Source: Patescibacteria group bacterium (GTDB lineage: Bacteria; Patescibacteriota; Patescibacteriia; UBA10025; JAHIVO01). Taken from it: DNA of 64,000 bases. A program made the position numbers and the translations under genes. Shown one piece after another: positions 1 to 58,932 of this stretch. Numbering within the stretch: the first letter of the stretch is position 1; the number at the start of each line of letters is the position of its first letter. The notes beneath the pieces were generated by a model. It did no database searches and had not been told where the DNA came from. It saw only the letters and a program-made list of their open reading frames with translations. Location: the NCBI GenBank assembly GCA_028718605.1, contig JAQULM010000001.1, positions 193,699-257,698 on the forward strand, written 5' to 3'.

Positions 1-3000
1 CTGAATGGCAACGGTGCCCTCGATGCCGGTGAACCGGCAATCGAAGGATGGAAGATGTACCTGAATGGCGGGAGCGAGCAGCTCACCAACGCCAGCGGCT
101 ACGCCTCATGGTATGTCCACACCGGCGGTACGTTCACCGTATCAGAAGAGAACCGCACTGGCTGGACACATACTTCCCCTGCCTCAATCGATGTTTCTGT
201 CACGTCAGGTGATTCTGCCAAGTTTGTCTACTTCTATAACTTCGAGAATGTTGATGTGAAAGTCAACAAGCTCATCGATACTGATGGCGACATTGCGACA
301 ACCGGCGATCGCACCGTTAAACAAGGCTGGACCGTCCAGCTCTGGAAAGGCGCTGCGCAAATCGGTACCGACCAAATAACTGACGTGAACGGCTCGTACA
401 CCTGGACCGATCTCGGCCCTGGCACATATACCGTGAAAGAAATCTTCAATAGCACTGAGTATACAGCGCTCACGAATACGGAATACACCTTTACCGTCAG
501 CTCGGGCACTGATGTGGAGCGGACGTTCATCAACTTCGAGAACATCGATGTGACGGTCTGCAAGTACGTTGATATGAACGGCGACGGCGACATAACCGGC
601 GATCCAGCATATACCAATAGCTGGGAAGTCACGCTCGGCAACAGCACACAGCTGACCGGTGCGAACGGCTGCGTCACCTATACGAACGCTGGTCCCGGCA
701 ACTACGATGTGACTGAAGACACGTCTGTCGCAGGCTGGGTGCAGACATACCCACGCGGTGGCAGCTATAACTTTGATGCGGTTTCAGGCGTGAATCGGAC
801 GTTCAACTTCGGTAACTTCGAAACCCCACACCTCACCGTCATCAAGCATGTCATCAATGATAATGGCGGTACAGCAGTCGCTTCTGACTTCACCATGAAT
901 GTCAGCGGGACAAACGTCTCTGACGACTCGTTCCCTGGCGATGAAGCTGGCACCACTGTCACGTTGGACGCAGGCGCGTACAGCGTTGATGAGGATGCAT
1001 TCTTCGGCTATGCCAAGACGATCGGCGCAGATTGCGCAGGGTCTGTTGTCAGCGGTGACAATAAGACCTGCACGATTACCAACGACGATATTGCGCCGGA
1101 ACTGACGGTTGTGAAGCACGTCATCAATGACAACGGCGGCTCAGCAGTCGCTGCTGACTTCACCATGAACGTCACCGCGACCAATGTTTCCGATGATTCA
1201 TTTCCCGGAGATGAGATTGGCGTCACCGTCACCCTCGACCAGGGCGCATACAGCGTAGACGAAAATGCGTTCTACGGGTATGCAAAGACGCTCAGCGCGG
1301 ACTGCACTGGCACCATTAATGTCGGTGAAACAAAGACTTGCACGATTACCAATGACGATATTCAGCCCAAACTGACCGTGACCAAAGTTGTCATCAATGA
1401 CAACGGCGGCACCGCAGTTGTGGCTGACTTCCCGTTGTTCGTGGATGCGACAAGCGTCGTCTCGGGCGTGCAGAACGGCTTCGATGCTGACGATTACGTC
1501 GTATCAGAAACCAACCTCTTCGGTTATTCAGCAACCATCTCGGGCGATTGCGACGTGAACGGTAACGTTACGCTCAATGTCGGTGACGTCAAGTCATGCA
1601 CCATCACAAATGACGATATCGCACCGGAACTGACGGTTGTGAAGCACGTCATCAATGACAACGGCGGCTCAGCAGTCGCTGCTGACTTCACCATGAACGT
1701 CACCGGAACGAACGTTTCTGACGATTCATTCGCTGGCGATGAGGCTGGTGTAACTGTTACTCTTGACCAGGGTGTATACGGCGTTGATGAGAATGCGTAC
1801 GTTGGCTATGCTAAGACACTTGGTGCGGATTGCACAGGCACCATCAATGTTGGCGAAACCAAGACCTGCACCATCACCAACGATGACATCCCCGGCAAAA
1901 TCTCCGGCTACAAGTACGACGACCACGGCACAGCGCTCCAGGGCTGGACAATCTGCATCATACAGAACGCAGCGCCGGTTAATGGGCTCGTCCCGCCGCC
2001 GTTCTGCACGGTTACTGACGCCAACGGCTACTACGAATTTGCCGGCCTCAATGTCGGCACGTTCACGATCAGCGAAACGCTAAAGGGCGGCTGGACACAG
2101 CTCGAACCTGTCGGCGTTACACACGTCATCGATGTTGTCCCTGGCACCGATTCGCAGAATAACAACTTCGTGAACCGCTTGAATGAGTTCAATGTTGACA
2201 TTGAGAAGAGCGCACCGGCAACCGTCGTTGCAGGTGATGAAATGACATACACGCTCGACTGGACGATTACTGGCAACACACCGGTATTCAACGCCCATGT
2301 GAGTGACGTCCTGCCTGCAAACACGACATTTGTGTCAGCTGCCAACGGCGGCACCTACGACAGCGCCACCAACACCGTGACCTGGGATCTCGGGACAGTA
2401 AACCCGGATGACAGCGGTACGGTTACCTTCGTTGTGAAGACAGCTTCGCCGCTCGATAACGCTACCGTTATCGAAAATACCGGCGAGGTATGCGGCACCG
2501 GGTATATCGTGCCTGAGGACGAGAACGAACTCTTTAACCCAGATGGTACGACCAAGTGCGATTCCGACAAAACCACGACGACCATCGAATCAGCGCCGAT
2601 CCTCGGCATTGAGAAGACAAACGACCGGCCAGTCGCAAATCCCGGTGATGTCGTGAACTACACAATCACCTGGAGCGTCGATGGCAATTCCAAGGCAACC
2701 AACGTTACCTTGACCGACACCGTGCCGGTTAACGAAGAAGTAGACATTACCACAATCAGCAACGGCGGCACCTACGATGCAGCGACGAGGATCATCACCT
2801 GGGATCTCGGTACGCAAATACCGCACGCCGAGGGCACTGTCACCTACTCCGTGGATCTCGATACGCCGCTCGCGAATGGCACAACGATTGTCAACGTTGC
2901 CAAACTCATGTGCGATGAAACAGATCCGCTGTTCGTAGAAGATGACTCGACGGTAGTTGTGAAGTCGGGCCCGATCCTCGAGATCGACAAGACGGTCAAC

Positions 3001-3795
3001 AAGGAATGGGTCAATCCCGGCGACACAGCCACGTATACCGTCGTCGTCAAGAACACCGGCAACGACACCGCGATCAACACGATGCTCACCGATCTCCTGC
3101 CCACTGGATTCACGTTTGTTGAATACGGCACCGACACGCATACATGGAGCCTCGGGGACCTCGAACCTGGCGACTCCGTCACGACTGTCTATGACGTGAA
3201 GATCGGCAAGGACGTCGCGAAAGGCACGTACGACAACCTCGCGGTCACCTGGGCGGATAACTACGGCAACGTCAGCGACAAGGCGCCGCTGGAAGTCCGC
3301 ATACCGCAGGTGCTCGGCACTGAACCGGAACTCGTCATCGACAAGGTTGTTGACAAGACGTTCATCAACCCCGGCGGTTCAGCGACCTACACGGTCACCG
3401 TGAAAAACATCGGCGAGGGCTTCGCCTTCAATGTGAAGGTACAGGACGTCCTGCCTGCCGGCTTCTCATTCGAGGACGGTGATGTCACCAAAGTGTGGAC
3501 ACTCGGAGATATGGCCCCTGACATGTCAAAGATGATTTCGTATAAAGTCGTCGCGGCAAAGACGATTCTTGCCGGCACGTACGAGAACATCGCGACTGCT
3601 TGGGCTGACAACAACGACAAGGTCAGCGATTCGGTGAAGCTCGAAGTCCGCATTCCGAAAGTGCTCGGCGAAGAGCTTCCGGTTACCGGCGGCAGCCTCA
3701 TGTTCTACGTGTACCTGTTCGCGGCTGGATTGATCGTCGTGTTCTCCCTGTACATGCTGAAGGTCACTTCATCCAACGAAGACGAGCAATCATAG
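1..3795 (+). CDS. Giant LPXTG-anchored surface protein (5' end lies outside the window): Cna-B/SdrD-B-like beta-sandwich repeats, four tandem ~88-aa Cys-pair repeats, five DUF11-type 'conserved repeat domain' units, and a C-terminal LPVTGG sorting signal with TM helix and charged tail
   Basis: The reading frame is open from nt 1, with the ORF track starting at 55. The protein shows repeated TVVKHVINDNGG...TKTCTITNDDI units and DUF11-like L.I.K...V.PG..V.YT..V.N.G units. The C-terminus reads ...KVLGEELPVTGGSLMFYVYLFAAGLIVVFSLYMLK, a sortase signal. Confidence 0.85.
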   Translation: MNGNGALDAGEPAIEGWKMYLNGGSEQLTNASGYASWYVHTGGTFTVSEENRTGWTHTSPASIDVSVTSGDSAKFVYFYNFENVDVKVNKLIDTDGDIATTGDRTVKQGWTVQLWKGAAQIGTDQITDVNGSYTWTDLGPGTYTVKEIFNSTEYTALTNTEYTFTVSSGTDVERTFINFENIDVTVCKYVDMNGDGDITGDPAYTNSWEVTLGNSTQLTGANGCVTYTNAGPGNYDVTEDTSVAGWVQTYPRGGSYNFDAVSGVNRTFNFGNFETPHLTVIKHVINDNGGTAVASDFTMNVSGTNVSDDSFPGDEAGTTVTLDAGAYSVDEDAFFGYAKTIGADCAGSVVSGDNKTCTITNDDIAPELTVVKHVINDNGGSAVAADFTMNVTATNVSDDSFPGDEIGVTVTLDQGAYSVDENAFYGYAKTLSADCTGTINVGETKTCTITNDDIQPKLTVTKVVINDNGGTAVVADFPLFVDATSVVSGVQNGFDADDYVVSETNLFGYSATISGDCDVNGNVTLNVGDVKSCTITNDDIAPELTVVKHVINDNGGSAVAADFTMNVTGTNVSDDSFAGDEAGVTVTLDQGVYGVDENAYVGYAKTLGADCTGTINVGETKTCTITNDDIPGKISGYKYDDHGTALQGWTICIIQNAAPVNGLVPPPFCTVTDANGYYEFAGLNVGTFTISETLKGGWTQLEPVGVTHVIDVVPGTDSQNNNFVNRLNEFNVDIEKSAPATVVAGDEMTYTLDWTITGNTPVFNAHVSDVLPANTTFVSAANGGTYDSATNTVTWDLGTVNPDDSGTVTFVVKTASPLDNATVIENTGEVCGTGYIVPEDENELFNPDGTTKCDSDKTTTTIESAPILGIEKTNDRPVANPGDVVNYTITWSVDGNSKATNVTLTDTVPVNEEVDITTISNGGTYDAATRIITWDLGTQIPHAEGTVTYSVDLDTPLANGTTIVNVAKLMCDETDPLFVEDDSTVVVKSGPILEIDKTVNKEWVNPGDTATYTVVVKNTGNDTAINTMLTDLLPTGFTFVEYGTDTHTWSLGDLEPGDSVTTVYDVKIGKDVAKGTYDNLAVTWADNYGNVSDKAPLEVRIPQVLGTEPELVIDKVVDKTFINPGGSATYTVTVKNIGEGFAFNVKVQDVLPAGFSFEDGDVTKVWTLGDMAPDMSKMISYKVVAAKTILAGTYENIATAWADNNDKVSDSVKLEVRIPKVLGEELPVTGGSLMFYVYLFAAGLIVVFSLYMLKVTSSNEDEQS
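826..1893 (+). repeat. Four intragenic tandem repeats of ~265 nt (each ~88 aa). Repeats 2 and 4 (about 1093-1180 and 1621-1708) are near-identical at the DNA level
   Basis: The string ccggaactgacggttgtgaagcacgtcatcaatgacaacggcggctcagcagtcgctgctgacttcaccatgaacgtcacc occurs twice, 528 nt apart. Confidence 0.85.
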
Positions 3796-3819
3796 ATTGT
3801 AAAATCAGCTTTCGATAGA

Positions 3820-3847
3820 AAAAGCCTGCCCATGGGCAGGCTTTTTC
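3820..3847. terminator. Bidirectional rho-independent terminator shared by the convergent surface-protein gene and the DUF559 gene
   Basis: The 13-bp palindrome aaaagcctgccca/tgggcaggctttt has an A-run on one side and a T-run on the other. Confidence 0.8.
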
Positions 3848-3854
3848 GTTTGGC

Positions 3855-4214
3855 TTAACGTGCCAATCGTAACAATAATTCGATGACGCCTGTTATATTA
3901 TGATAAACATCTCTATTGGTAATTCTAATGATTCGAATACCGAGCGATTCAATAAACTTCTGGCGTTGGTTATCATATACGATCGTTTGTTTTGATAGAA
4001 AATGTGACGGCCCATCAACCTCGATGCCAAGCCTAAGCCGGGCACAATAAAAATCAATCACATACCCGCTAACACTATACTGCCGGCGGAACTTACAACC
4101 AGCCAACTGCTTGCCTTTCAAATAACGCCACAGCACAATCTCAGCGCGTGGTGCTGAATTCCTCAAGCCCTGGCGTCGGCGCTTCATCGAATGTGTGTTA
4201 TAGATGACTGTCAT
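3855..4214 (-). CDS. DUF559 family endonuclease-domain protein (Vsr/very-short-patch-repair-like fold)
   Basis: The protein shows the DUF559 signature ...EIVLWRYLKGKQLAGCKFRRQYSVSGYVIDFYCARLRLGIEVDGPSHF...IRIIRITNRDV. An RBS aaaggggagg lies upstream of the ATG. Confidence 0.75.
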   Translation of the reverse strand: MTVIYNTHSMKRRRQGLRNSAPRAEIVLWRYLKGKQLAGCKFRRQYSVSGYVIDFYCARLRLGIEVDGPSHFLSKQTIVYDNQRQKFIESLGIRIIRITNRDVYHNITGVIELLLRLAR

Positions 4215-4265
4215 AGTGCCGGTAGCCTTACCTCCCCTTTAAACTAACTTGGTGATTCCTCCGCC

Positions 4266-4440
4266 GTCTGTTCTCTTCCCCTCCTCATTTCGAGGAGGGG
4301 AAAACGTGACAAGTATGCTATGCCACAGCGTTCGTAGAGAGGTGGTGGAGTTATCCTCCCCTCCTTAATTGAGGAGGGGAAAAAGCGATACATGAGCCTT
4401 ACCTGAACGTCAGGAGGGGGGTGGTTGAGCCATGCCCCCC
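4266..4440. repeat. Locus A of a dispersed palindromic repeat family: two or more units of a CCCCTCCTC-loop-GAGGAGGGG hairpin followed by the conserved block GTTCGTAGAGRGGTGGTKG
   Basis: An 11-bp stem hairpin sits at 4266-4292 and a second hairpin at 4347-4370. The block cgttcgtagagaggtggtggag is at 4320-4340, and degenerate gaggggggtggttgagcc at 4403-4420. The same family recurs at 8941-9170. Confidence 0.7.
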
Positions 4441-4603
4441 AACGCATACAACAACTCCCCACGTAGGTTATGGGGAGGTTACTGCTTCCACTTTATCATT
4501 ACCTATTACAATAATCAATATCCCCTAAACAAGCATTGACACCCCCAATTGCGTGTGATAAGGTGGCGTATTCAATATCCACAGCCCCTCAACACTTCAT
4601 ATT

Positions 4604-4638
4604 TGACAAAACCGGTATATATTACGTATAATGTGGGC
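4604..4638 (+). promoter_or_regulatory. Sigma70-like promoter TTGACA-N18-TATAAT upstream of the secreted-protein gene
   Basis: The sequence is tttgacaaaaccggtatatattacgtataatg. Confidence 0.55.
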
Positions 4639-4689
4639 GCTTACGAACAATTTAATACATATCATTTAACCCCAATTAATAAAGGAACA

Positions 4690-5487
4690 ATGACTATGAA
4701 AAACGCATCATTGCGTCTAACCAACCCCCTCCCCATGGTCGTAGCGGGAGTGTTTATGTTATCTCTAGCAGTTTTACTTTTTATCCCCCAGCAAGTTGCG
4801 GCAAAGGTAGAAACTCCAAAGATTGATATTTGTCATGCCGAGAGTTCTGATGTAAATCCATATAATTCTTTATCAGTTGATAAAAATGCAACTGCAGGTG
4901 GTCATGATGACCACGATGGGGGTATTTATCCCGCGAATCCGTGGGGCGATATTATCCCTTCATATCAATACAGCTACCAGGCTTGGGAAGTAATTGGCTC
5001 TCATCAAGGATGTCCAACAGATAGTGCGTTATATACATCATGGGATTCAAGTAAACCTTGCAAAAAGAAAATAAGTGGACATTGGAAATATACTGATTAT
5101 ATTAACATTGACGATTATGGCTGGGTAACACATGAGGATCAATATCCTGGTAAAAACTGGACTACTGAAGGACAAGAAATTTACAACAACGGTTGTGTAA
5201 TACCCCCTGTATATTCAGTTGAATCCTATGAAAGTGATTATTCAACAGTAAAAAATGACTTCTATCAGGGCGAGATCGTTTATGGAAAAGGTTGGACTGA
5301 ATTCGTAGGTAATAAAGATTTACGACTTGAATTTAAAAATCCTAACGGAGATTCCGTGGAAATTTGCGGCGAAAGGAAAGGGACGTGGTCGCAATGTCCT
5401 CATAACCTAAGTAATGATGCCCTTACTGGAACTTGGACAATTGAATTACAGCAGAAAGGTGATAAATATTGGAGCTGGAGTGATTAG
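4690..5487 (+). CDS. AT-rich secreted or membrane-anchored protein module (signal/anchor helix MVVAGVFMLSLAVLLFIP). It is in-frame with, and probably the N-terminal part of, the downstream LPXTG protein, interrupted by a TAG
   Basis: The ATG at 4690 is preceded by aaaggaac. The N-terminal hydrophobic helix is followed by AAKVETPK. The ORF ends at TAG 5485-5487, in the same frame as ORF 5542-8865. Confidence 0.6.
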   Translation: MTMKNASLRLTNPLPMVVAGVFMLSLAVLLFIPQQVAAKVETPKIDICHAESSDVNPYNSLSVDKNATAGGHDDHDGGIYPANPWGDIIPSYQYSYQAWEVIGSHQGCPTDSALYTSWDSSKPCKKKISGHWKYTDYINIDDYGWVTHEDQYPGKNWTTEGQEIYNNGCVIPPVYSVESYESDYSTVKNDFYQGEIVYGKGWTEFVGNKDLRLEFKNPNGDSVEICGERKGTWSQCPHNLSNDALTGTWTIELQQKGDKYWSWSD

Positions 5488-5541
5488 AGCTGGCACTACT
5501 ATTGGAATGTCAAAGCAACGGACACTTTCAATGTTAATGAA

Positions 5542-8500
5542 TTGCCTCCAGCAACCATCATTGCCTCAAAAATCGTCTGCGACAGCGAATCCGATCTGCC
5601 AAACTGGGGCGGAGCTCAAGGTGACCAATCCATCAATGCAAATACGGCAACAGACTTTGTCAATGCCAGTAATGGGAAATGCCATATTAATCTTGATTGG
5701 ACATTCCAGTATAAAACTGGCGATGTAGCCAATCCTGATGATAACTCCGGCGTTGCGAGTGACTGGTCTACTCCCTTCTCATCATCGGTGCCAGTTGATG
5801 TAAGCGCTTCCAATCTTATTAAAGTGCGTGAAATCTGGAACGATCAATATATCCCATTTACAGGTGACAACGACAACAAGAATGTAAGTGCCGAGTTTTA
5901 CTGCGCAAATGATAACTACAAATACGACAATTTCGACTATGTCACTAGCGCGCAGCCAGGCCAGACCTACTACTGCGTCGCGTTTAATGCACTCGCAGCT
6001 ATTTGCGGCGATGGTGAACTAGACCCGGCAACCGAACAATGCGACAATGGACCGGATAATACTGACGATGCATGCACAGCCGAATACGGCGATACATGTG
6101 ATTATTGCACAGCCTCATGCCAATCAGTCACAATCACTGGTCCGCATTGTGGTGACGGCATAGTCAATGGCGAAGAACAATGCGATGACGATAATTCAAT
6201 CAATAATGACGCCTGCACTAATCAATGCACATTCCCTACCGGCTCAATCACCGGTACGAAATACGAAGACATTAACGCGAGTGGTGATCGCGATACCATC
6301 GGAGACACGAGCAATACCGAACCAGGCCTCTCTGGCTGGAATATATATCTCTACCAAGGAGAAGGCCCTTCAATCGCTAATACAACCACGGATGCCAAGG
6401 GCGATTATGAATTCCTTGGTTTGACTCCGGGCGAGTACAGGGTTTGCGAAGACAACAAGCCAGATTGGCACCACACAGATCCGGGTATGAATGACAACCC
6501 GTGTAAAACCGTGACAGTAACAGCTGGCCAGGCGGTCACAGCGAATTTCGGTAACTTCCATGACGCTTGGATAGAAGGTTACAAATACGAAGATGCCAAT
6601 GGCAACGGGCAGTACGACGATGGTGAGCAATACATCAATGGTTGGCCAATTCGGTTATATAGATTAGAACAAAACAAGAAAGGTGGCACGTCCTGGGACA
6701 ATACCGCTGGCCAGGGAACTGGCTCGGTCTGGCCGGAAACCGGCAGGTATGCCTGGACTGATGTGCCTGGAACGTATTATGTTTGTGAGGTTGCCAAGCA
6801 CGACTTCGACGGTTCCGACTGGATCCAGACACAGCCGGCTGCTGACCAGGGCGTCGCGAACCAATCCGGCATGGAAGATGAAGCGTTTCGCTGTTATGAA
6901 GTCGTCATCGATGAATCCGGGGAGCAGAATACGCACCTCGATTTCGGTAATCAACGGATCGTCCCAACATACGACGTCCACGGCTACAAGTGGAACGACA
7001 TTGACGAGGATGGGTACTTTGATTGCGAAAATACCTTCTCCATTCAAACACTCACAAACGTGAACACGCTCCCCCCAGTGGCGCAATTATGCGAGCCGAA
7101 ACTCTGCGATTGGACCATCCAGCTCAAGCAGAATGGCGAAGTCCTCGATGAGACTACAACCTCGTGCGAAGACAGCCGCGATTACGGCTGGTACTGGTTC
7201 GAGGACCTTCCGGCCGGAACATACGAAATTTGTGAAGTCCAGCAGGAAGGCTGGGACCAAACGTACCCCGAGAACTGCCATAACGTGACGTTGCCGCTGG
7301 CCCAGGAAACGCTACGGGCAACTGTCATTTCTGACAATTTCGTCGAAGACGCCCCTGAGTTTGACTTTGGCAACCACCAAATCCCACCGGTTCCCGTTGT
7401 CGACATCACCAAGACCGTCACGGTAAATGGCGAGGAAACAGCCACGGCGCATGAGGGCGACTCGCTCGTCTATACGATTACTGTTTCCAATACGGGCAAC
7501 GCGACCGCGTATGACTTGAGAATCAGTGACGACTTGCCGGCAAACGTTACATTCGGAGAGGATGCGTTCAATCCCGCGCCTGGAGTCAATGACGGCACGA
7601 CTGCGGTTTGGGATCCGATCGACCTGCCCGCTGGCAATGATTATGTCATCACGATCACCGGCACCGTGAACGCAGGCCTCGAATATGGCAGCGCTGATAG
7701 CCTTGAGGTCGTCAATACGGCGACCGTCGAGCAATTCGAATTCAACCAAGAGGTTTCTTTCTGGCAAAAACTGCTCGGCGTGAAAGTCGCACATGCGCAA
7801 GCAGCAGCAGCGCCGATTAACTTTATCCACCAGGCAGCGGTTGCCGCGGTGAATGTCCTGAAGCCTGTTCCCGCTATCTGCGGCAATGGCACGATAGAGC
7901 AAGCAGCTGGCGAGGAATGCGATGACGGTGCGCTGAACAATAAGCCATGCACGGCAGGAGTCGGCCAGACCTGTACGTACTGCTCGTCAACCTGCACCAC
8001 ATTCACCGTGACTGGCGAAGAACCAACACCGGTGCTCGCTGTCCTGAAGACCGTTGACGATTCATTAACGAACCCCGGCCAAGTTGTTACCTATACAGTC
8101 ACGATCAGCAATTCCGGCAATGCGGCGGCGAAAGACGTGAAGCTCGTTGACACCCTGCCAGCAGGGCTCACCTTCGCTGACAAAAAAGGCAAAACAACCG
8201 GCGACACCGAGAAAACCTGGACTTGGAAAACGCTCGCCGCTGGCGATGACGTGACGGTCACCTACGATGCAGTAATCGACTCAAATACCGGCGCAGATGT
8301 ATATGATAACCTCGCAACAGTTACCGCAAAGAATTTCGACGGTTCAGTGACTGCCAAAGCGTCGACCGAGGTCCGCATCCCTGTCGTGCTCGGGGACGAG
8401 ACGCCTGAACTCGAAATTACGAAGACAGCAAAGCAGACATACGTTAATCCCGGCGGCACCGTTACCTACACGGTTACCGTGAAGAACGTTGGTGATGCGC

Positions 8501-8865
8501 CGGCAATGAACGCGGTGCTGACCGACACGCTTCCTGCCGGATTCGTCTTCGCTGACACGGGTAAATCGACAAAGACATGGAAATTGGGTGATATCGTGCC
8601 GGATGAGGTAGTAACCAAGACCTACACGGTCAAGGTTGATGCTTCAACAATCGCGGGTAAGTACACGAACTTAGCCACGGTGAAAGCTGATGATACGCCG
8701 GTTATAACGGCGAAGGCTGCTGTCGAGGTTCGGACGCCGAAAGTATTAGGTGCTGAAGACGAGCCGACACAGCTGCCAGTCACTGGCGCAGGCATTCTCG
8801 GGTTAGTTGCTGCTGCAGCCGTCATTATTGGCACGGGCGTCATCTCCAAGAAACGGACGCGGTAA
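5542..8865 (+). CDS. Large LPXTG-type surface protein body: SdrD-B/Cna-B repeats, two Myxococcus-type Cys-rich repeats (CGDG...EQCDDGN), three DUF11 repeats, and a C-terminal QLPVTGAG sorting signal with TM helix and KKRTR tail. It has no signal peptide of its own
   Basis: The motifs AICGDGELDPATEQCDNG and AICGNGTIEQAAGEECDDG are present. DUF11 units read EITKTAKQTYVNPGGTVTYTVTVKNVGDAP. The ORF-track start is a TTG directly after the in-frame TAG, and no RBS was found. Confidence 0.8.
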   Translation: MPPATIIASKIVCDSESDLPNWGGAQGDQSINANTATDFVNASNGKCHINLDWTFQYKTGDVANPDDNSGVASDWSTPFSSSVPVDVSASNLIKVREIWNDQYIPFTGDNDNKNVSAEFYCANDNYKYDNFDYVTSAQPGQTYYCVAFNALAAICGDGELDPATEQCDNGPDNTDDACTAEYGDTCDYCTASCQSVTITGPHCGDGIVNGEEQCDDDNSINNDACTNQCTFPTGSITGTKYEDINASGDRDTIGDTSNTEPGLSGWNIYLYQGEGPSIANTTTDAKGDYEFLGLTPGEYRVCEDNKPDWHHTDPGMNDNPCKTVTVTAGQAVTANFGNFHDAWIEGYKYEDANGNGQYDDGEQYINGWPIRLYRLEQNKKGGTSWDNTAGQGTGSVWPETGRYAWTDVPGTYYVCEVAKHDFDGSDWIQTQPAADQGVANQSGMEDEAFRCYEVVIDESGEQNTHLDFGNQRIVPTYDVHGYKWNDIDEDGYFDCENTFSIQTLTNVNTLPPVAQLCEPKLCDWTIQLKQNGEVLDETTTSCEDSRDYGWYWFEDLPAGTYEICEVQQEGWDQTYPENCHNVTLPLAQETLRATVISDNFVEDAPEFDFGNHQIPPVPVVDITKTVTVNGEETATAHEGDSLVYTITVSNTGNATAYDLRISDDLPANVTFGEDAFNPAPGVNDGTTAVWDPIDLPAGNDYVITITGTVNAGLEYGSADSLEVVNTATVEQFEFNQEVSFWQKLLGVKVAHAQAAAAPINFIHQAAVAAVNVLKPVPAICGNGTIEQAAGEECDDGALNNKPCTAGVGQTCTYCSSTCTTFTVTGEEPTPVLAVLKTVDDSLTNPGQVVTYTVTISNSGNAAAKDVKLVDTLPAGLTFADKKGKTTGDTEKTWTWKTLAAGDDVTVTYDAVIDSNTGADVYDNLATVTAKNFDGSVTAKASTEVRIPVVLGDETPELEITKTAKQTYVNPGGTVTYTVTVKNVGDAPAMNAVLTDTLPAGFVFADTGKSTKTWKLGDIVPDEVVTKTYTVKVDASTIAGKYTNLATVKADDTPVITAKAAVEVRTPKVLGAEDEPTQLPVTGAGILGLVAAAAVIIGTGVISKKRTR

Positions 8866-8892
8866 AACATTTCACAGGCATTCAAGATAGAA

Positions 8893-8925
8893 AAGCGGGC
8901 TCTACCAAGGGCCTGCTTTTCATTT
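8893..8925 (+). terminator. Putative terminator hairpin after the surface-protein gene
   Basis: The sequence agcgggctctaccaagggcctgct forms a stem with two G-U pairs and is followed by tttcattt. Confidence 0.35.
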
Positions 8926-8940
8926 ATTTGTTGTGCATGT

Positions 8941-9170
8941 ATCCTTCCCCTCCTCTCTGAGGAGGGGAAAACGTTATACGCACGCCGTTCCATAAAAGTT
9001 CGTAGAGGGGTGGTTGGTCCTCCCCCCCTCCTTTCCAAGGAGGGGAAATGCAATAAGCAAATTAATCCGCATTGTTTCTAGAGGGGTGGTTGGCTCTCTT
9101 CCCATCCTCTCTGAGGAGGGAAAAGGCACTCCATCTGCATTGCCGCGGTGTTTGTAGAGGGGAGGTGATG
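8941..9170. repeat. Locus B of the palindromic repeat family: three tandem units of ~78 nt, each a CCCCTCCTC-loop-GAGGAGGGG hairpin followed by GTTCGTAGAGGGGTGGTTGG
   Basis: Hairpins lie at 8945-8969, 9025-9045 and 9101-9121, the last with a bulge. Conserved blocks lie at 8997-9018, 9075-9094 and 9150-9168. Confidence 0.75.
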
Positions 9171-9202
9171 CCCTTTGAAGCGTCCTCGCGTAGGAGGAAC
9201 CC

Positions 9203-9231
9203 TTGACAAACCTTTGCGGGTATGGTAGTAT
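9203..9231 (+). promoter_or_regulatory. Sigma70-like promoter TTGACA-N17-TAGTAT upstream of the CAP-domain gene
   Basis: The sequence is ccttgacaaacctttgcgggtatggtagtatg. Confidence 0.5.
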
Positions 9232-9263
9232 GTTTTGTTAATGAAACATCTGCATCAGGAATA

Positions 9264-10958
9264 ATGTGGTATAATAATTACAGTCACTTTTCCATAAAGA
9301 AATATATGGACAAAGCAGCCCCGAAAAAAAAGGAACTCCACGAGCATATTATCCACCACTGCAAGAAGCTGCCTCATCATGCATGGCACTTTTTGGTACC
9401 GCACAAGGGAAATAACCACAAGCCCCACGCATTACGGCCAACCGCCCTTCGGCTGTACGTTTTTTCGATTATTGCCGTAAAAGTCTTCGTGGGCAGTTTC
9501 TTGTTCCTCTCGTACCCGTCAGCGGGTGAATTTGCTGCAATTGCACAAGCAGACATCTTGAGCCTTACGAATGCCTCGCGAGCAGAAGCAGGCATCGCCC
9601 CCCTGTCGCTGAACGCTGCGCTGAATAAAGCGGCACAGCTGAAAGCCCAGCATATGATCGCCAATAACTACTTTGCGCATACCGCGCCGGACGGTACAAA
9701 ACCGTGGTCATTTCTGAAACAGGCTGGATACAGCTACACCGCTGCGGGCGAAAATCTCGCCATGGACTTCACCGAGGCCGCGACCGTACACACCGCGTTC
9801 ATGAACAGCGAGTCGCACAAGAAAAACATCATGAATTCAAAATATACGCAGATGGGCATCGCAGTCTTGGATGGCGAGCTCGATGGCGTTTCAACAACTA
9901 TTCTTGTCGAGTTTTTCGGTGCCCCATATGAAGCTGCTGCTGCGCCAACCACCCCAACACCAACGCCGACGCCGACACCCACGCCAACCACTCCAACACC
10001 GACACCAACGCCAACACCCACTCCAACGCCGACACCAACGCCAACGACTCCAACGCCGACACCAACGCCAACGACTCCAACGCCGACACCAACGCCAATA
10101 CCCACTCCAGTACCCCAGTATTACCGGGCTGAGCTGACTGACCAGAGTGCTACAGAGCTTGGAATCAAGACGCTCGAACAAATCAGCTATTGGGTTGAAT
10201 TCAAGAATACCGGCACGATTACGTGGAATAATTCTGGCGAATATTTCGTTGCCCTGAATGTCAATAATCCGATCGGCAGGCACAGTGCGTTCGAAGATGA
10301 AACGTGGGTTGAATACTACCGCCCAGCCATACTCAAACAGCCACGCGTTGCCCCGGGAGAAATCGGGCGGTTTGAATTCACTTTGAAGTCACCCGACGAA
10401 GCTGGCGCATACGAAGAATCCTTCGGCATCGTCGCGGAGAATAAAGCATGGATCGATGGCGGCACCATCGAGCTCCCGATCGTCGTCGTCGCGCCGCCTG
10501 AACAGACATCAGAAATGGAAGTCAACGTTATACCGACCACGACAACTCCCCAAACCAACGCGAACACCAATACCGCTGCGCCGACGAATACAAACCAATC
10601 CCCAACGAATACAAACACCACGCCCGCAGCTGTTACCGAGACACCGCTTGTCAACGATAATACCAATGCACAAATAGTAACCCCCGAACAGCGTGCAGTC
10701 ATCGTCGCTGGCGCAGAGCAAAAAGGCGAGGAAGCGAAGGGCTTTATCGGTAAAATTCTCGAATACTCGAAGCGGTTCTATCTGGTGTTTGTCATCTTCC
10801 TTGTTGTTGCCCTGCTCATCAACATCCTGGTCGAGATCAGAATACAGCAGCCGCACATGATTATTCAGACAATTGTCGTCATTATCATCGCCGTAACTGC
10901 CATTCTTCTGAATCCCCATTTCCTCGAAAAAGTACCGCTCGCGCTCAGGATTGCCTAG
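9264..10958 (+). CDS. Membrane-anchored CAP/SCP/PR-1 domain protein (YkwD-like) with a long Pro-Thr linker, a beta-sandwich domain of unknown function, an N/T-rich linker and a C-terminal TM segment
   Basis: The CAP motifs ...LNKAAQLKAQHMIANNYFAHTAPDGTKPWSFLKQAGY...GENLA...HTAFMNSESHKKNIMNSKYTQMGIAV are present. The PT linker reads PTTPTPTPTPTP.... The ORF-track start at 9222 falls inside the predicted -10 element, so the ATG at 9264 (or 9306) is preferred. Confidence 0.8.
   Translation: MWYNNYSHFSIKKYMDKAAPKKKELHEHIIHHCKKLPHHAWHFLVPHKGNNHKPHALRPTALRLYVFSIIAVKVFVGSFLFLSYPSAGEFAAIAQADILSLTNASRAEAGIAPLSLNAALNKAAQLKAQHMIANNYFAHTAPDGTKPWSFLKQAGYSYTAAGENLAMDFTEAATVHTAFMNSESHKKNIMNSKYTQMGIAVLDGELDGVSTTILVEFFGAPYEAAAAPTTPTPTPTPTPTPTTPTPTPTPTPTPTPTPTPTTPTPTPTPTTPTPTPTPIPTPVPQYYRAELTDQSATELGIKTLEQISYWVEFKNTGTITWNNSGEYFVALNVNNPIGRHSAFEDETWVEYYRPAILKQPRVAPGEIGRFEFTLKSPDEAGAYEESFGIVAENKAWIDGGTIELPIVVVAPPEQTSEMEVNVIPTTTTPQTNANTNTAAPTNTNQSPTNTNTTPAAVTETPLVNDNTNAQIVTPEQRAVIVAGAEQKGEEAKGFIGKILEYSKRFYLVFVIFLVVALLINILVEIRIQQPHMIIQTIVVIIIAVTAILLNPHFLEKVPLALRIA
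9940..10110 (+). repeat. Imperfect tandem hexanucleotide repeat (ccaacg/ccgaca) encoding the PT linker
   Basis: The DNA reads ccaacaccaacgccgacgccgacacccacgccaacc.... The ORF-track minus-strand GVGVGV ORF is an artefact of this repeat. Confidence 0.8.
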
Positions 10959-11000
10959 AAAGGGTTTCCACTGCCTATCAACAAAGCATTTCGATAAATA

Positions 11001-11024
11001 AAACCCCTGGAAACAGGGGTTTTG
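11001..11024 (+). terminator. Rho-independent terminator with a GNRA-type loop
   Basis: The sequence is aaacccctggaaacaggggttttg. Confidence 0.8.
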
Positions 11025-11118
11025 CGTTCCTTGCCGCCACTGCCTTGTGCCGCTTGACCAAAGAATGGAAATCGAATAAAATAAAGTAATTACTTCAAAT
11101 TAAACGTACGGAAAAACT

Positions 11119-12231
11119 ATGCAGAATCTACCATCGAACCGGGGGGTACGGCTCTTCGGGCTCAGTGCACTCATGCTGATCGCCCTTGGGTGTGCGTGCG
11201 CAGTACCTGCCAGTGCCCAAAATACGAACAACCCGCCGCATATCACCTCGGAACCGTCCGCAACTGTCGCTGCAGGCGATCCTTATGCGTACCAACTCGA
11301 GGCAACGGATCAGGACAACGATACCGTGACCTTCTCGCTCACGGCAGCGCCGAAAGGCATGGTGATATCGAACGGCGTTATTTCATGGAATCCGACGGCT
11401 GTTGGCGTGTACAATGTCGTCATCGACGCAACTGATGGGAACGAGGGTTACGATACCCAGGCGTGGCACGTTACGGTACAACCATCGGTAGTTTCATTAT
11501 TAAAAATTATCCCCAACGAACGTCCGACCGTGATCGAGATTGGCGCTACCCAAAAATTTACTGCAACAGCGTATGATGCTTACGATAACGAGCTCAGTGG
11601 CGCAACTATTGCATGGACAACGGATGAAAAAACTGGCGTCGTTGATACTGACGGCACGTTTAGCGCGCGAAAAGGCGGCATCGGCTTTATTGCGGCGTCG
11701 ATTGGCGAAACAAGCACTTCAATCGGAATCGTCGTAAAAGATACACGGACTGAACAAGTAACGCCAGCCGCGAACGCGAATACGAACACAAACGCGGGCC
11801 AGGCGGCGTCAACCGAAACCACCAACACTGCGGCACAGCAAACGGTTACGAACACAAACAGCGCACTACCACAAACCACCACCGATACCGATGGGCCGCG
11901 TGTCCCGCTTTTAGCCGTCGACACGGGCGTTGGGATCGAAACTGCCTGCAAATACTGGTCAATGGGCACACTGTTGCTCTCGCTTGCCATATACCTTATC
12001 GGACTTGGCGCGTACTACACATTCACGAAAAACCGCCGCTTTCCTTTCTGGTGGATTTTTCCCATCGTTTTTACAGGGGTGGGTGTCACCCTCTACTATC
12101 GTCTCTTGTGCACGGATGCGACCGTCTGGTGGCCGTGGGTCTTGATCGCATTCGGTATACTGCTTACCTGGTACCATAAGTTTGGTGGGCGCGCAGTCAG
12201 CCAGAGTTCGCAAACAGAACTTCCGTTTTAA
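11119..12231 (+). CDS. Surface protein with a signal peptide, a cadherin-like/putative-Ig (He_PIG-like) domain, a Big_2 bacterial Ig-like domain, a T/N-rich linker and three or four C-terminal TM helices
   Basis: The signal peptide reads MQNLPSNRGVRLFGLSALMLIALGCACAVPASA. The domains read ...PPHITSEPSATVAAGDPYAYQLEATDQDNDTVTFSL... and ...IIPNERPTVIEIGATQKFTATAYDAYDNELSGATIAWTTDEK.... The C-terminus is hydrophobic. Confidence 0.7.
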   Translation: MQNLPSNRGVRLFGLSALMLIALGCACAVPASAQNTNNPPHITSEPSATVAAGDPYAYQLEATDQDNDTVTFSLTAAPKGMVISNGVISWNPTAVGVYNVVIDATDGNEGYDTQAWHVTVQPSVVSLLKIIPNERPTVIEIGATQKFTATAYDAYDNELSGATIAWTTDEKTGVVDTDGTFSARKGGIGFIAASIGETSTSIGIVVKDTRTEQVTPAANANTNTNAGQAASTETTNTAAQQTVTNTNSALPQTTTDTDGPRVPLLAVDTGVGIETACKYWSMGTLLLSLAIYLIGLGAYYTFTKNRRFPFWWIFPIVFTGVGVTLYYRLLCTDATVWWPWVLIAFGILLTWYHKFGGRAVSQSSQTELPF

Positions 12232-12312
12232 GCGTGCCGCGGTTTTGTGCGATACAATAATCCCCGCTCATGGACACCATGAGGCGACGGTTTGGTGTTG
12301 GAGCAATACTCG

Positions 12313-13128
12313 CTAGCGAAGCAGCACGTACGCAATAACTCCAGCGCCGAGTGCAAAGCGGTAGTATGCAAATGCGGAAAGTTTATGGTGCTCGAGGTAC
12401 CGGAGGAGGAATGCGATCGCGATATATCCAACAATGGCTGACGTAATGAAACCGGCAAGCATCATCATCCATTGATCCGAGGAAATGCCCGCCGAAGCCG
12501 CGTCGAGCATTTTTTTCATACCTGCGCCAAATACAATAGGCGCCGACAGGAGAAACGAAAATCGTGCAGCCTCCTGTCTCGAAAGGCCGAAGAATATGCC
12601 GGTAACGATGGTCATGCCAGAGCGCGATACGCCAGGCAAAAGCGCGAGAGCTTGCGCGCATCCAATAAGGACGGACCGGCAAAAACCAAGGTTCGCAATA
12701 TCAAGTCGCTGCCTTGAAAAACGCTCGACAACCAGAAACAGCACCCCGACCCCGATGAGGAGCCCAGCAACAAGCCATAAGTTCCTGAATGCCGAATCCG
12801 CGAGGTCAGAAAGCGCAATGCCGGCAATCACGCCTGGCACAGTCGCGGCAACGAGAAACCACGCAATGCGCTGGTTCTGGTCCTCCCGTAGTTTCCAATT
12901 GGCAAAGCTCCTGAAAAATGCTACGATGATAGCGCGAATGTCGCCCCAAAAAAATACGAGAATAGCAACGAGCGTCCCAAGATGCAGAGCCACGTCAAAG
13001 CTCAAGTCATCGAACAGGGAAAAATCGATAAGCTCGTGGGCGATTACCAAATGCCCAGAGCTTGAAATCGGCAAAAACTCGGTGATCCCCTGGATACAGC
13101 CCAATACGATTGACTGAATTATTTCCAT
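12313..13128 (-). CDS. uppP: Undecaprenyl-diphosphatase (BacA/UppP)
   Basis: The N-terminus reads MEIIQSIVLGCIQGITEFLPISSSGHLVIAHELI, and the protein is an 8-TM membrane protein. Confidence 0.9.
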   Translation of the reverse strand: MEIIQSIVLGCIQGITEFLPISSSGHLVIAHELIDFSLFDDLSFDVALHLGTLVAILVFFWGDIRAIIVAFFRSFANWKLREDQNQRIAWFLVAATVPGVIAGIALSDLADSAFRNLWLVAGLLIGVGVLFLVVERFSRQRLDIANLGFCRSVLIGCAQALALLPGVSRSGMTIVTGIFFGLSRQEAARFSFLLSAPIVFGAGMKKMLDAASAGISSDQWMMMLAGFITSAIVGYIAIAFLLRYLEHHKLSAFAYYRFALGAGVIAYVLLR

Positions 13129-13131
13129 ACT

Positions 13132-13566
13132 ATGAACCTTACCGTTGATCTGATTCTTGCCCCGATATTCACCTTATTTATCGTGCAGTCAATTAAGCTC
13201 GCATCCGATGGCATCAAGGGCAATTTCAATTTGAAGAATGTTCTTACCGCATACGGCGGCATGCCCTCCAGCCATTCAGCGGTTGTCGCAACGCTGACTG
13301 CTATGGTCGGTTATCGTGAGGGTGTTGCGTCAACGGCATTTGGCATCGCCCTGCTCTTCTCCCTCATCGTCATCACCGACGCGATGGTATTGCGGAAATA
13401 CATCGATCTCCAGGGCTCTGCAATCCGCACAATCGCGGCATCCCTGCCCCCAGCAGTCCAAACCCGCCTGAACCTACCAGCCAAGCGCCTCCAGCATACC
13501 TTTTTCCAAGTTGTTGTTGGTACGCTGATCGGCGTCGCGATCGCATCACTGGTTCATTTTCTCTAG
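13132..13566 (+). CDS. Divergent PAP2 family (DUF212) membrane phosphatase-like protein
   Basis: The protein carries the GGMPSSHSA motif. The gene is arranged head-to-head with uppP, only 3 nt apart. Confidence 0.7.
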   Translation: MNLTVDLILAPIFTLFIVQSIKLASDGIKGNFNLKNVLTAYGGMPSSHSAVVATLTAMVGYREGVASTAFGIALLFSLIVITDAMVLRKYIDLQGSAIRTIAASLPPAVQTRLNLPAKRLQHTFFQVVVGTLIGVAIASLVHFL

Positions 13567-13645
13567 TAACGGTTCCCTTATAAAAGTCCAAAACGGAGCT
13601 CTGGCATGATGCCGCTACTCCGCTTTTGGAGATACATCGCTCGGA

Positions 13646-14098
13646 TCAAATCTTGAGGCGGCTTTTTAATATATTCCGGTAAATATCTCGCCTGGTAACA
13701 ATACCCTCGATCCTGCCTTCATTGCTGACGACAACGACACGATGGATGCCCCTCACGAGCATGATAGAGCCGACCTGCATGAGCGATGCATTCGGATTGA
13801 CCGTGATAACATCACGAACCATCAGATCTTCCACAAACTTGTCCGCAGACTCTGTCGCCTTTTCCTCGAGCTTGTCGAGATCGATCCACACGCCAGGTGA
13901 TTCATAAAACTCAGCATGCGACGGATAGAGCGATTTAAAAAGATCCTTTTCTGAAACTATCCCGACGAGCACGCCGTTGCTGTCGACAACAGGCGCGCCT
14001 GAAATATTATGCTCAGCGAGTATCGCAGCAGCCTGGCGAAGGGTAGCGCGGTTTGAAATCGTTACGACGTTCCGTGACATTATTTCCTGTACAATCAT
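13646..14098 (-). CDS. CBS-domain pair protein
   Basis: Two CBS motifs are present: ...IMSRNVVTISNRATLRQAAAILAEHNISGAPVVD... and ...VRDVITVNPNASLMQVGSIML. Confidence 0.8.
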   Translation of the reverse strand: MIVQEIMSRNVVTISNRATLRQAAAILAEHNISGAPVVDSNGVLVGIVSEKDLFKSLYPSHAEFYESPGVWIDLDKLEEKATESADKFVEDLMVRDVITVNPNASLMQVGSIMLVRGIHRVVVVSNEGRIEGIVTRRDIYRNILKSRLKI

Positions 14099-14228
14099 AG
14101 TGCTTCTCGTGCTCGTAAATATATGTTTATCGGGGCTTTCTCCGTAATCAACATGCGGTAGCCTGAGTACAGTATAAAGGATGCCGTAAAAAAAATAAAG
14201 GCACCCGGAAAGCCTCGGAAATCAACGG

Positions 14229-15413: not shown

Positions 15414-15416
15414 AGG

Positions 15417-16085
15417 TTATATTTCCTTTAAAATGTCCCGTAAATCGCTGCAAAAGTGATCTGGCTGCACCTTCAACGCATGATGTTTGTTGAACTGGTT
15501 GCAATAGTAGTATGTCGCTGCACCGACTGCCTTACCTGCCTCGATATCGCTTTCCCGATCGCCGATTTTAATAATTTTTCCATAGTGCCGGCCACCGATG
15601 TACGCGCGCAGCGCGTGCTCCTTTACCCGCATAATATCCGTATGTTCGCGCGGTTCGCTGTGCGCGTCGAGACCAATAAAGTCTTTAATATAAGAATCCA
15701 GACCAACCATCCTTGCAAACCATCTGATTTGATCATTGCGCGTGTTGCTCATGATGATATTCGTATGACCGCGCTCCGCAATTGTCCGGAGCACTTCCTC
15801 GGCGTAAGCGGTCGGCTTAATATACCGCTCAATGACATGATCATGCTCTTGAATTTCAAATGCGCGTTGCTTCATCGCATTCCACGTTTCGAGAGTACCG
15901 CGAGGGTCAAGATACCGAAAGTAATCAATCCACGAAAGTCCGTACCACTGCACAGTCTGTTCCAGTGATATCTGGCGCTGCAGATTACGTTCAGCGGCAA
16001 CGTGATTCAGTATTTCGTGCAATGCCTGCACATTCCCCTGCTCGAGTGTGCCATGAAAATCCCAGACAAAAAGCGCTGGTTTCAT
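15417..16085 (-). CDS. HAD-superfamily hydrolase-like protein embedded in the ABC operon
   Basis: Motif I is ALFVWDFHGTLE, a DxD variant, and motif IV is IGDRESDIEAG. The start codon overlaps the stop of the ATPase gene. Confidence 0.5.
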   Translation of the reverse strand: MKPALFVWDFHGTLEQGNVQALHEILNHVAAERNLQRQISLEQTVQWYGLSWIDYFRYLDPRGTLETWNAMKQRAFEIQEHDHVIERYIKPTAYAEEVLRTIAERGHTNIIMSNTRNDQIRWFARMVGLDSYIKDFIGLDAHSEPREHTDIMRVKEHALRAYIGGRHYGKIIKIGDRESDIEAGKAVGAATYYYCNQFNKHHALKVQPDHFCSDLRDILKEI

Positions 16086-16981: not shown

Positions 16982-17224
16982 ACTACGTGAATTATGCTGT
17001 AGTGCTCAATGCGCTCGCCGTCACGCGATACGGCAAGGCGCTAAAATGGTTTGAAAGGCATGCCAGGCCCGCGCGGAAGGCTCTCTTGCTTTTCGGCAAG
17101 GTGTTTTTCTGCTTTCTTCTGCTGTTTCGTCGCGCTGCGCATCAGGTACAGTATCGCACCAAGCCCGCACCCGATGAGTATTGGGAAGCCGAAACCGTCT
17201 GGATTGAGCAGGAAATCGCGTATG

Positions 17225-17668: not shown

Positions 17669-17690
17669 AAATTTTGCTCAAGAGTAAAAA

Positions 17691-58373: not shown

Positions 58374-58395
58374 TCAATCTCCCGCGGACTGAAAA

Positions 58396-58896: not shown

Positions 58897-58932
58897 AAAT
58901 ATTTATAAATTACGTATATTTTATTGTTTGTT

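What the first reader, a model, noticed from the sequence alone, without database searches (positions are those of the whole stretch)
4690..8865. Mosaic LPXTG surface-protein gene: an AT-rich signal-peptide module joined in-frame to a GC-rich adhesin body through a single TAG
ORF 4549-5487 and ORF 5542-8865 are in the same frame and separated only by TAG 5485-5487. The upstream part supplies the only signal/anchor helix, with an RBS and a promoter. The downstream 1107-aa part ends in an LPXTG sorting signal but has no signal peptide, no ATG (the track starts it at a TTG) and no RBS, so it cannot be exported on its own. GC content also shifts sharply: roughly 38-43 percent from 4690 to about 5900, and more than 55 percent after about 6000. 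This suggests a recombined N-terminal cassette. TAG is used as an ordinary stop elsewhere in the window, so possible readings include a recent pseudogenisation (phase-variable loss of a surface antigen), an assembly or sequencing error at a cassette junction, or low-level amber readthrough.
Basis: seen in the sequence. Interest (0 to 1): 0.6.

Follow-up and report, generated by a model that had tools for sequence, protein, structure and literature searches.

The report
Surface adhesin gene broken by one nonsense SNP
A 1391-codon cell-wall-anchored surface-protein gene of a Patescibacteria bacterium is cut in two by one G-to-A change (Trp TGG to stop TAG); an otherwise identical sister genome carries the intact gene, so this is an ordinary, very recent knock-out allele and not a recoding event or a cassette joint.

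Summary
ORFs 4690-5487 and 5488/5542-8865 share a frame and are separated only by TAG 5485-5487. The deciding evidence is a sister MAG (GCA_028711455.1). It is identical to the window at 60,751 of the 60,752 compared bases, and the one difference is nt 5486: A here, G there. That makes TAG here and TGG (Trp) there, and the sister ORF runs 1391 aa from signal peptide to LPVTG anchor.

The TAG is not a module junction. It lies in a variable aromatic-rich loop inside a conserved Ig-like domain (B). That domain's last conserved strand ('TDTFNV', family motif 'DHFNV') is encoded after the stop. One perfect promoter (4603-4632) and one terminator (8890-8921) bracket the gene. TTG 5542 has no SD-like motif and no signal peptide follows it. 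TAG ends housekeeping genes in the window, no suppressor tRNA is present in the window, and no RNA structure follows the stop.

The compositional mosaic is real but inexactly described: GC3 is 0.26, 0.46 and 0.62 in three segments, with the first break near the B/C domain boundary.

Verdict: a recent nonsense allele of a modular sortase-type adhesin. Ordinary; low interest.

The parts
4603..4632 (+). Sigma-70-type promoter TTGACA-18 nt-TATAAT (12 of 12 matches)
   Evidence: It is the only perfect match in 4200-9300 and lies 58 nt upstream of ATG 4690.
4690..4803 (+). Start codon (ATG 4690; NCBI uses ATG 4696) and Sec-type signal peptide, aa 1-38 (K/R n-region, hydrophobic MVVAGVFMLSLAVLLFI, 'VAA|K')
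   Evidence: top hydropathy segment; AGGA 7-10 nt upstream. No signal-peptide predictor was available, so this is read from the sequence.
4804..5205 (+). Module A: N-terminal 'ICHA..NPY...GH..H...WGDIIP...YPGKNWT' domain with no Pfam or NCBIfam model
   Evidence: About 20 homologues have it directly after a signal peptide. 12 of the 15 homologues fetched end in an LPXTG-like signal plus TM helix plus basic tail.
5206..5538 (+). Module B: Ig-like (weakly MG2-like) domain that spans the stop codon; its last conserved strand TDTFNV is at 5518-5535
   Evidence: MG2, below threshold; 55 homologues by exhaustive HMMER; alignment: the 'DHFNV' strand is present in 19 of 20 homologues and aligns to the post-TAG TDTFNV.
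5485..5487 (+). In-frame TAG; nt 5486 is A here and G (TGG, Trp) in sister MAG GCA_028711455.1. This is the only difference in 60,752 compared bases.
5551..6000 (+). Module C: 'KIVCDSESDLPNWG...VSAEFYC..D...YDN...YYCVAFN' domain with no Pfam model; in nearly every homologue it starts 70-460 residues into the protein, and in P0032 at residue 19
   Evidence: 43 invariant columns in the 5-sequence alignment.
6001..6240 (+). Cysteine-rich acidic repeats (CGDG....EQCD); a second block lies near 7870-8000
   Evidence: (TIGR02232, 31 bits) and the sequence.
6286..7330 (+). SdrD B-like / prealbumin-fold repeats (about 3)
   Evidence: PF17210, 1.1e-20, 3 stretches; also PF17802 and PF13620. Boundaries are approximate.
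7390..8700 (+). DUF11 (CLIPPER) / isopeptide-type repeats (3 or more) with the second Cys-rich block between them
   Evidence: PF01345, 1e-46; TIGR01451, TIGR04226. Boundaries are approximate.
8773..8865 (+). Sorting signal LPVTG (8773-8787), hydrophobic helix, KKRTR tail, TAA stop 8863-8865
   Evidence: TIGR01167 scores 15.4 bits against a 15.9-bit cut-off.
8890..8921 (+). Intrinsic-terminator-like hairpin (14-bp stem) followed by a T-rich tail

Best explanation
Positions 4690-8865 are one gene for a 1391-aa modular surface protein of sortase-substrate type. Its order is signal peptide, domain A, Ig-like domain B, domain C, Cys-rich repeats, SdrD-B-like repeats, DUF11 repeats, then LPVTG, a TM helix and a basic tail.

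In the genome sampled in this window, one G-to-A transition at nt 5486 turned Trp codon 266 (TGG) into TAG.

Shown:
- The intact allele exists in an otherwise identical sister MAG.
- The stop lies inside domain B, ahead of its last conserved beta-strand.

Inferred:
- The TAG allele yields a secreted, unanchored 265-aa fragment (signal peptide, A and a truncated B) that probably misfolds.
- The 1125 downstream codons have no start signals and no export signal, so they are not productively expressed. The allele is therefore a null for the wall-anchored adhesin.
- The rest of the ORF is undamaged and the genomes are otherwise identical, so the lesion is very recent, or is a variant segregating in one population.
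- The low-GC3 5' third (signal peptide, A, B) probably reflects older domain-level shuffling between lineages of different GC content. It is unrelated to the stop.
For: Sister MAG:
- P0054 reads ...WSWSDWSWHYYW....
- Window 1-18865 versus L006 shows one mismatch and no gaps, at 5486, A versus G.
- Window 18268-60752 versus L007 and L010 shows no mismatches.
- The sister ORF is 1391 aa with no internal stop.

Domain evidence:
- The domain-B family alignment places the conserved terminal 'DHFNV' strand after the TAG.
- P0057 and P0070 align across the TAG position in single HSPs. P0055 is collinear from B to its LPETG anchor.
- P0004 and P0028 carry A and C in one chain.
- 12 of the 15 A-family homologues fetched have a C-terminal sorting signal, which the 263-aa ORF lacks.

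Expression signals:
- One promoter and one terminator bracket the whole ORF. No SD-like motif precedes TTG 5542.

Genetic code:
- TAG ends adenylosuccinate synthase and lyase, DnaJ, DnaK and both neighbouring genes.

Assembly:
- The Logan assembly has the same base.
Against: - Read-level data were not available. A consensus error, or a minority versus majority allele within the sample, cannot be separated from a fixed mutation.
- The two assemblies that show TAG probably derive from the same run, so they are independent only at the assembler level.
- Expression of either product is untested.
- The direction of mutation (TGG ancestral) is inferred from ORF integrity and domain conservation, not from an outgroup of close relatives. 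None exists in the searched collections.
Confidence: 0.88

Rival explanations
1. Consensus or sequencing artefact, or a within-sample polymorphism. Under this reading the organism in this sample mostly or partly carries TGG, and the TAG in the assembly does not represent a fixed genotype.
For: The site is the only difference from the sister MAG in 60.75 kb. A lone difference is what an isolated error would also look like. No reads could be inspected.
Against: Two different assemblers (the deposited MAG and the Logan contig of SRR22315506) give A at 5486. The site is not in a homopolymer or repeat. Substitution errors in short-read consensus sequence are rare (established knowledge).
Confidence: 0.08
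2. Functional stop-codon readthrough or recoding. Under this reading TAG 5485 is decoded at some frequency, so the cell makes both a short secreted protein and the full anchored adhesin.
For: The downstream 1125 codons are still fully open. The nucleotide after the stop is A. Nothing here measures translation.
Against: - The stop is not conserved, because the clonal sister has a plain TGG.
- TAG terminates conserved housekeeping genes at their expected lengths.
- The window has no tRNA with a CUA anticodon.
- The 125 nt around and after the stop fold no better than shuffles, z = 0.22.
- An open downstream frame is expected after any very recent mutation.
Confidence: 0.03
3. Two separate genes. 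Under this reading a complete foreign low-GC 263-aa gene with its native TAG stop was inserted in front of a 5'-truncated resident adhesin gene, and the shared frame is a coincidence.
For: The maximum-likelihood GC3 change-point is nt 5488, directly after the TAG. Many module-A homologues are short, 244-340 aa.
Against: - The sister MAG has the same low-GC 5' part joined to the body by TGG in an open frame.
- Domain B continues past the stop.
- The short A-family proteins all carry their own C-terminal anchors, which the 263-aa ORF lacks.
- The change-point support interval is 240 nt wide (5335-5575) and includes the B/C domain boundary.
Confidence: 0.01

Closest known systems
Sortase-anchored (LPXTG-type) modular surface adhesins of Gram-positive bacteria, e.g. 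the SdrD/Clf MSCRAMM class and SpaA-type pilins
   Same: It has an N-terminal Sec signal peptide and tandem Ig-like or prealbumin-fold repeats (SdrD_B, SpaA and DUF11/isopeptide-type). It ends in LPVTG, a hydrophobic helix and a basic tail.
   Different: The host is a Patescibacteria (CPR) MAG. The three N-terminal domains A, B and C have no Pfam or NCBIfam model. The anchor scores just under the TIGR01167 cut-off. No sortase gene was looked for.
Nonsense or frameshift null alleles of surface proteins segregating within bacterial populations. From my own knowledge, premature stop codons in Listeria inlA are an example; it was not checked here.
   Same: A single point mutation truncates an LPXTG protein before its anchor and produces a secreted, non-anchored fragment. 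Intact and truncated alleles coexist in near-identical genomes.
   Different: Only two genomes are available, from metagenomes. No phenotype, allele frequency or evidence of selection is available.
Phase-variable surface antigens (slipped-strand or invertible switches)
   Same: It shows on/off alleles of a surface protein.
   Different: The site has no simple-sequence repeat and no invertible element. The change is a plain transition, so reversion would require the exact back-mutation.

Membership tests
LPXTG/sortase-substrate surface protein | N-terminal Sec signal peptide | tested here: met
   The top hydropathy segment is aa 12-34, preceded by K4 and R9 and followed by VAA|K. This was read from the sequence, because no dedicated predictor was available.
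LPXTG/sortase-substrate surface protein | C-terminal LPXTG motif followed by a hydrophobic stretch and a positively charged tail | tested here: met
   The sequence reads LPVTG-AGILGLVAAAAVIIGTGVIS-KKRTR at the very C-terminus.
LPXTG/sortase-substrate surface protein | Match to the curated anchor model TIGR01167 above its cut-off | tested here: inconclusive
   15.4 bits against a 15.9-bit cut-off, E = 0.023, profile positions 1-32 of 34.
LPXTG/sortase-substrate surface protein | A sortase encoded in the genome | not tested
   The window's other ORFs were not scanned for PF04203, and the rest of the 651-kb genome was not available.
Single gene interrupted by a nonsense mutation (pseudogene or null allele) | An intact allele or orthologue with a sense codon at the stop position | tested here: met
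   Sister MAG GCA_028711455.1 has TGG, and its ORF is 1391 aa and uninterrupted.
Single gene interrupted by a nonsense mutation (pseudogene or null allele) | The stop falls inside a conserved domain, so neither product is a natural unit | tested here: met
   The terminal 'DHFNV' strand of the domain-B family lies after the TAG. The upstream product lacks the anchor present in 12 of the 15 A-family homologues fetched. The downstream part lacks a start, an RBS and a signal peptide.
Programmed stop-codon readthrough or amber recoding | Conservation of the in-frame stop among relatives | tested here: not met
   The clonal sister genome has TGG.
Programmed stop-codon readthrough or amber recoding | Suppressor tRNA, recoding machinery or a stimulatory RNA structure | tested here: not met
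   Only tRNA-Pro(CGG) and tRNA-Gln(CTG) are found in the window. Folding z-score is 0.22. TAG is used as a terminator in housekeeping genes. The rest of the genome was not scanned.
Phase-variable contingency locus | Simple-sequence repeat or invertible segment at the switch site | tested here: not met
   The sequence around 5486 is GAGTGATTAGAGCTGG, with no homopolymer or short tandem repeat. No inverted repeats flank it.
Mosaic (recombined) gene | Significant intragenic compositional break relative to genome background | tested here: met
   GC3 is 0.26, 0.46 and 0.62 in the three segments. The two-change-point model gains 51 log-likelihood units over the no-break model and 9.5 over a single break. 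Other genes in the window have GC3 of 0.49-0.73.
Mosaic (recombined) gene | An identifiable donor, or a paralogue sharing one segment at DNA level | tested here: not met
   The closest A and B homologues are 40-52% identical at protein level. The window holds no DNA-level paralogue beyond a 61-nt match at 75% identity.

The most novel reading that the evidence does not exclude
The TAG allele might be a selected loss-of-function switch rather than a dead gene. It is the only difference in 60.75 kb between two otherwise clonal populations of an ultra-small Patescibacteria bacterium (a group many of whose members are episymbionts), and only about 3-4% of random substitutions in this gene would be nonsense. 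Shedding this 1391-aa wall-anchored adhesin might therefore be adaptive, for example by escaping a phage or predator that uses it as a receptor, or by detaching from a host cell. It could revert by the back-transition, or be softened by leaky readthrough of the UAG.
Probability: 0.1. Interest if true: 0.45.

Novelty: new member of a known kind. Interest (0 to 1): 0.15.

Why it matters
The main value is practical.
- Annotation: two NCBI CDSs (MDD5715250.1 and MDD5715251.1) are halves of one gene and should be flagged as a pseudogene or null allele. In the sister MAG the intact gene is annotated 222 codons too short, without its signal peptide, probably because of the atypical composition of its 5' end.
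- Recoding surveys: an apparent in-frame TAG should be checked against near-identical genomes before recoding is invoked.
- Biology: it adds a documented strain-level on/off difference in a giant adhesin of a CPR bacterium. It also delineates three unmodelled domains (A, B, C) that recur in CPR surface proteins.

None of this would surprise a specialist.

Tried and rejected
- Read-through structure prediction. The tool refuses translations containing a stop and refuses edited sequences. A family alignment of domain B replaced it.
- Pfam MG2 match as evidence that domain B ends at the TAG. The match is below threshold and stops at profile position 92 of 96 whether or not the read-through sequence is supplied. 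The exhaustive HMMER search overrode it by showing a conserved strand after the stop.
- Recurrent split in homologues. P0036 looked similar, with a 54-nt gap and the same frame, but it has two stops and an unrelated downstream protein. P0021 is followed by an unrelated cupin gene.
- The 'foreign complete gene plus truncated resident gene' model, prompted by the GC3 change-point at 5488. It was rejected using the sister allele and domain continuity.
- Looking for the full-length intact protein (1391 or 1389 aa) in the 15-billion-protein collection. It is absent, because the sister's gene was called from an internal GTG.
- Genotyping a third sample (SRR22315508). That organism is present there (L009), but no contig covering the TAG site could be retrieved.
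- Literature searches for the accessions, and for Patescibacteria plus sortase plus LPXTG, found nothing relevant.
- Method note: the word-index homology search missed P0053 and P0054 although they share more than 150 identical residues with the query. The sister allele was found only through the cluster look-up.
Full report

Yes. The ORF list and the raw sequence show ORF 4549-5487 and ORF 5542-8865 in the same frame. The 18 codons between TAG 5485-5487 and TTG 5542 hold no stop, so translating 4690-8865 gives 1392 codons with one internal stop at codon 266.

Only two strongly hydrophobic segments exist. One is aa 12-34, a signal-peptide h-region preceded by K/R and followed by VAA|K. The other is the helix after LPVTG at the C-terminus.

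The expression signals fit one transcription unit:
- A perfect TTGACA-18-TATAAT promoter lies at 4603-4632.
- AGGA precedes ATG 4690.
- No SD-like motif precedes TTG 5542.
- A 14-bp hairpin with a T-tail follows the TAA at 8890-8921.

The composition claim is qualitatively right but numerically loose. GC reaches 0.55 or more only after about 7050. At third codon positions the signal is strong: 0.26 for 4690-5487, 0.46 for 5488-6685 and 0.62 for the rest. Twenty other genes in the window have GC3 of 0.49-0.73.

**2. Where the window comes from**

The 263-aa product is NCBI MDD5715250.1 (locus tag PHF98_00930), annotated 'Patescibacteria group bacterium', on a 651-kb contig. The downstream ORF is MDD5715251.1, annotated as a separate 'SdrD B-like domain-containing protein'. 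A Logan assembly of run SRR22315506 is 100% identical to window 1676-10049 and has the same split, so the TAG is not peculiar to one assembler.

**3. The decisive comparison**

The 90%-identity cluster of the 1107-aa product holds one more member, P0054 (MDD5039942.1, 1169 aa), from MAG GCA_028711455.1. It reads ...KYWSWSDWSWHYYWNVKATDTFNV..., with Trp where the window has the stop.

At DNA level:
- The sister contig matches window 1-18865 with one mismatch and no gaps. The mismatch is nt 5486, A in the window and G in the sister.
- Two further stretches of the sister contig match window 18268-60752 with no mismatches.

So the two genomes are identical over 60,752 bases except for TGG versus TAG. 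In the sister, the ORF from the ATG equivalent to 4690 to the TAA equivalent to 8865 is 1391 aa and uninterrupted.

The sister's annotation starts the gene at an internal GTG (window 5356). That leaves the signal peptide and 222 codons uncalled, which is probably a gene-finder artefact caused by the atypical composition.

**4. Where the stop sits in the protein**

Homology searches resolve three unmodelled N-terminal modules.

*Module A (aa 39 to about 172)* follows a signal peptide in about 20 homologues. Of the 15 homologues fetched, 12 end in an LPXTG-like motif, a TM helix and a basic tail. Two others (P0021, P0036) have no anchor, and P0045 appears to be cut at a contig end. The 263-aa ORF has no such anchor.

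*Module C (aa 288-437)* starts 70-460 residues into nearly every homologue, and at residue 19 in P0032.

*Module B (aa about 173-283)* gave only a sub-threshold MG2 match that ended at the stop. For a while this, together with a GC3 change-point at 5488, made a rival 'two genes' model worth considering. An exhaustive HMMER search with the pre-TAG part of B found 55 homologues. In an alignment of 20 of them, the domain ends with a conserved 'DHFNV' strand after a variable, aromatic-rich loop. In the window that strand (TDTFNV, 5518-5535) lies after the TAG, and the TAG is in the loop.

Distant homologues also carry these parts in one chain:
- P0057 and P0070 align across the stop position in single HSPs.
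- P0055 is collinear from B to its LPETG anchor.
- P0004 and P0028 carry A and C in one chain.

The stop therefore interrupts a folded domain and is not a module joint.

**5. Rivals**

*Readthrough or recoding.* The stop is not conserved in the clonal sister. TAG terminates adenylosuccinate synthase and lyase, DnaJ, DnaK and both flanking genes at the lengths annotated in the sister. The window has no CUA-anticodon tRNA. The RNA after the stop folds no better than shuffles, z = 0.22.

*Phase variation.* There is no simple repeat or invertible element at the site.

*Two separate genes.* This is refuted by the sister allele and by domain continuity.

*Artefact or polymorphism.* This cannot be excluded without reads. 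Two assemblers agree, and the site is not error-prone sequence.

**6. The mosaic**

The 5' third of the gene is compositionally foreign. It is the second lowest-GC island in the window (z = -2.9). The first change-point has a 240-nt support interval (5335-5575) that contains both the TAG and the B/C domain boundary at about 5540.

Because the TAG is a simple transition in a gene that is intact in the sister, its closeness to the break is best read as coincidence. The break itself fits domain-level shuffling. Related proteins show the same modules in other orders, for example signal peptide, B, Cys-rich repeats, then C in P0055.

No donor and no DNA-level paralogue was found. The C-terminal DUF11 region is 45% identical in protein to the upstream giant adhesin, with no evidence of recent gene conversion.

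**7. Mechanism and consequences (inferred)**

The TAG allele should give a secreted, unanchored 265-aa fragment whose B domain lacks its last strand. No anchored adhesin should be made.

The lesion is recent: the remaining 1125 codons are undamaged and the genomes are otherwise identical. About 3-4% of random substitutions in this gene would be nonsense. That the only difference in 60 kb is a stop in a giant adhesin is mildly suggestive of selection for loss. It is a single event, however, and no claim is made on it.

**8. Comparison with known systems, and verdict**

By architecture this is a sortase-substrate-type modular adhesin. The signal peptide and the LPVTG, helix and basic tail are met. 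The TIGR01167 model scores 15.4 bits against a 15.9-bit cut-off. A sortase was not searched for.

A premature stop that removes the anchor of a surface protein is a familiar kind of population variant. I rate the finding as a new member of a known kind, with low interest (0.15). Its value lies in correcting the annotation of both MAGs and in showing that this in-frame TAG is not recoding.

Noticed in passing
window 4275-4462 and 8930-9166: Tandem 76-80-nt repeat units, each containing a CCCCTCCTC-loop-GAGGAGGGG hairpin, occupy both intergenic flanks of the adhesin gene. The core pattern occurs nowhere else in the 64-kb window, and 0 matches are expected by chance. They have no T-tail, so they are not canonical terminators.
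   Followed up: partly
window 58150-59500: This is the lowest-GC island in the window (GC about 0.30, against a mean of 0.51). It covers small minus-strand ORFs (57729-58373, 58396-58902, 58933-59544) and may be foreign DNA.
   Followed up: no
L006 9335-13510 (sister MAG GCA_028711455.1, equivalent to window 4690-8865): The intact gene is annotated only from an internal GTG (window 5356; 1169 aa). The signal peptide and 222 codons of low-GC coding sequence are left unannotated. In the window's own MAG the two halves are annotated as ordinary CDSs rather than as a pseudogene.
   Followed up: yes
window 1-3795: This is the 3' end of a surface protein of at least 2842 aa (SpaA_2, DUF11, LPVTGG anchor), according to the sister contig's gene call. 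Its C-terminal DUF11 region is 45% identical to that of the split gene.
   Followed up: partly
window 3855-4214 (minus strand): A DUF559 / Vsr-like endonuclease-fold gene (119 aa) sits alone on the opposite strand between the two adhesin genes.
   Followed up: no
window 9222-10958; L004 4982-5833: A CAP-domain (cysteine-rich secretory protein family) gene with a long Pro-Thr repeat lies next to the adhesin. A CAP-domain gene also sits directly upstream of the distant A-family homologue P0004, which may indicate a conserved neighbourhood. The PT repeat is where the Logan contig breaks.
   Followed up: no
window 4804-6000: Three recurrent CPR surface-protein domains have no Pfam or NCBIfam model. 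A has the motif ICHA..NPY...GH..H...WGDIIP...YPGKNWT. B has the motif Y.VESY...YST.KN.F.QGETVYGKG...DAP.GEWDI.L...DHFNV. C has the motif KIVCD.ESDLPNWG...VSAEFYC...YDN...YYCVAFN.
   Followed up: partly
window 43333-45858 (minus strand): An 841-aa protein has DUF8128 and weak T4SS-DNA_transf / TrwB-type coupling-protein hits, as recorded for the sister contig's identical gene.
   Followed up: no
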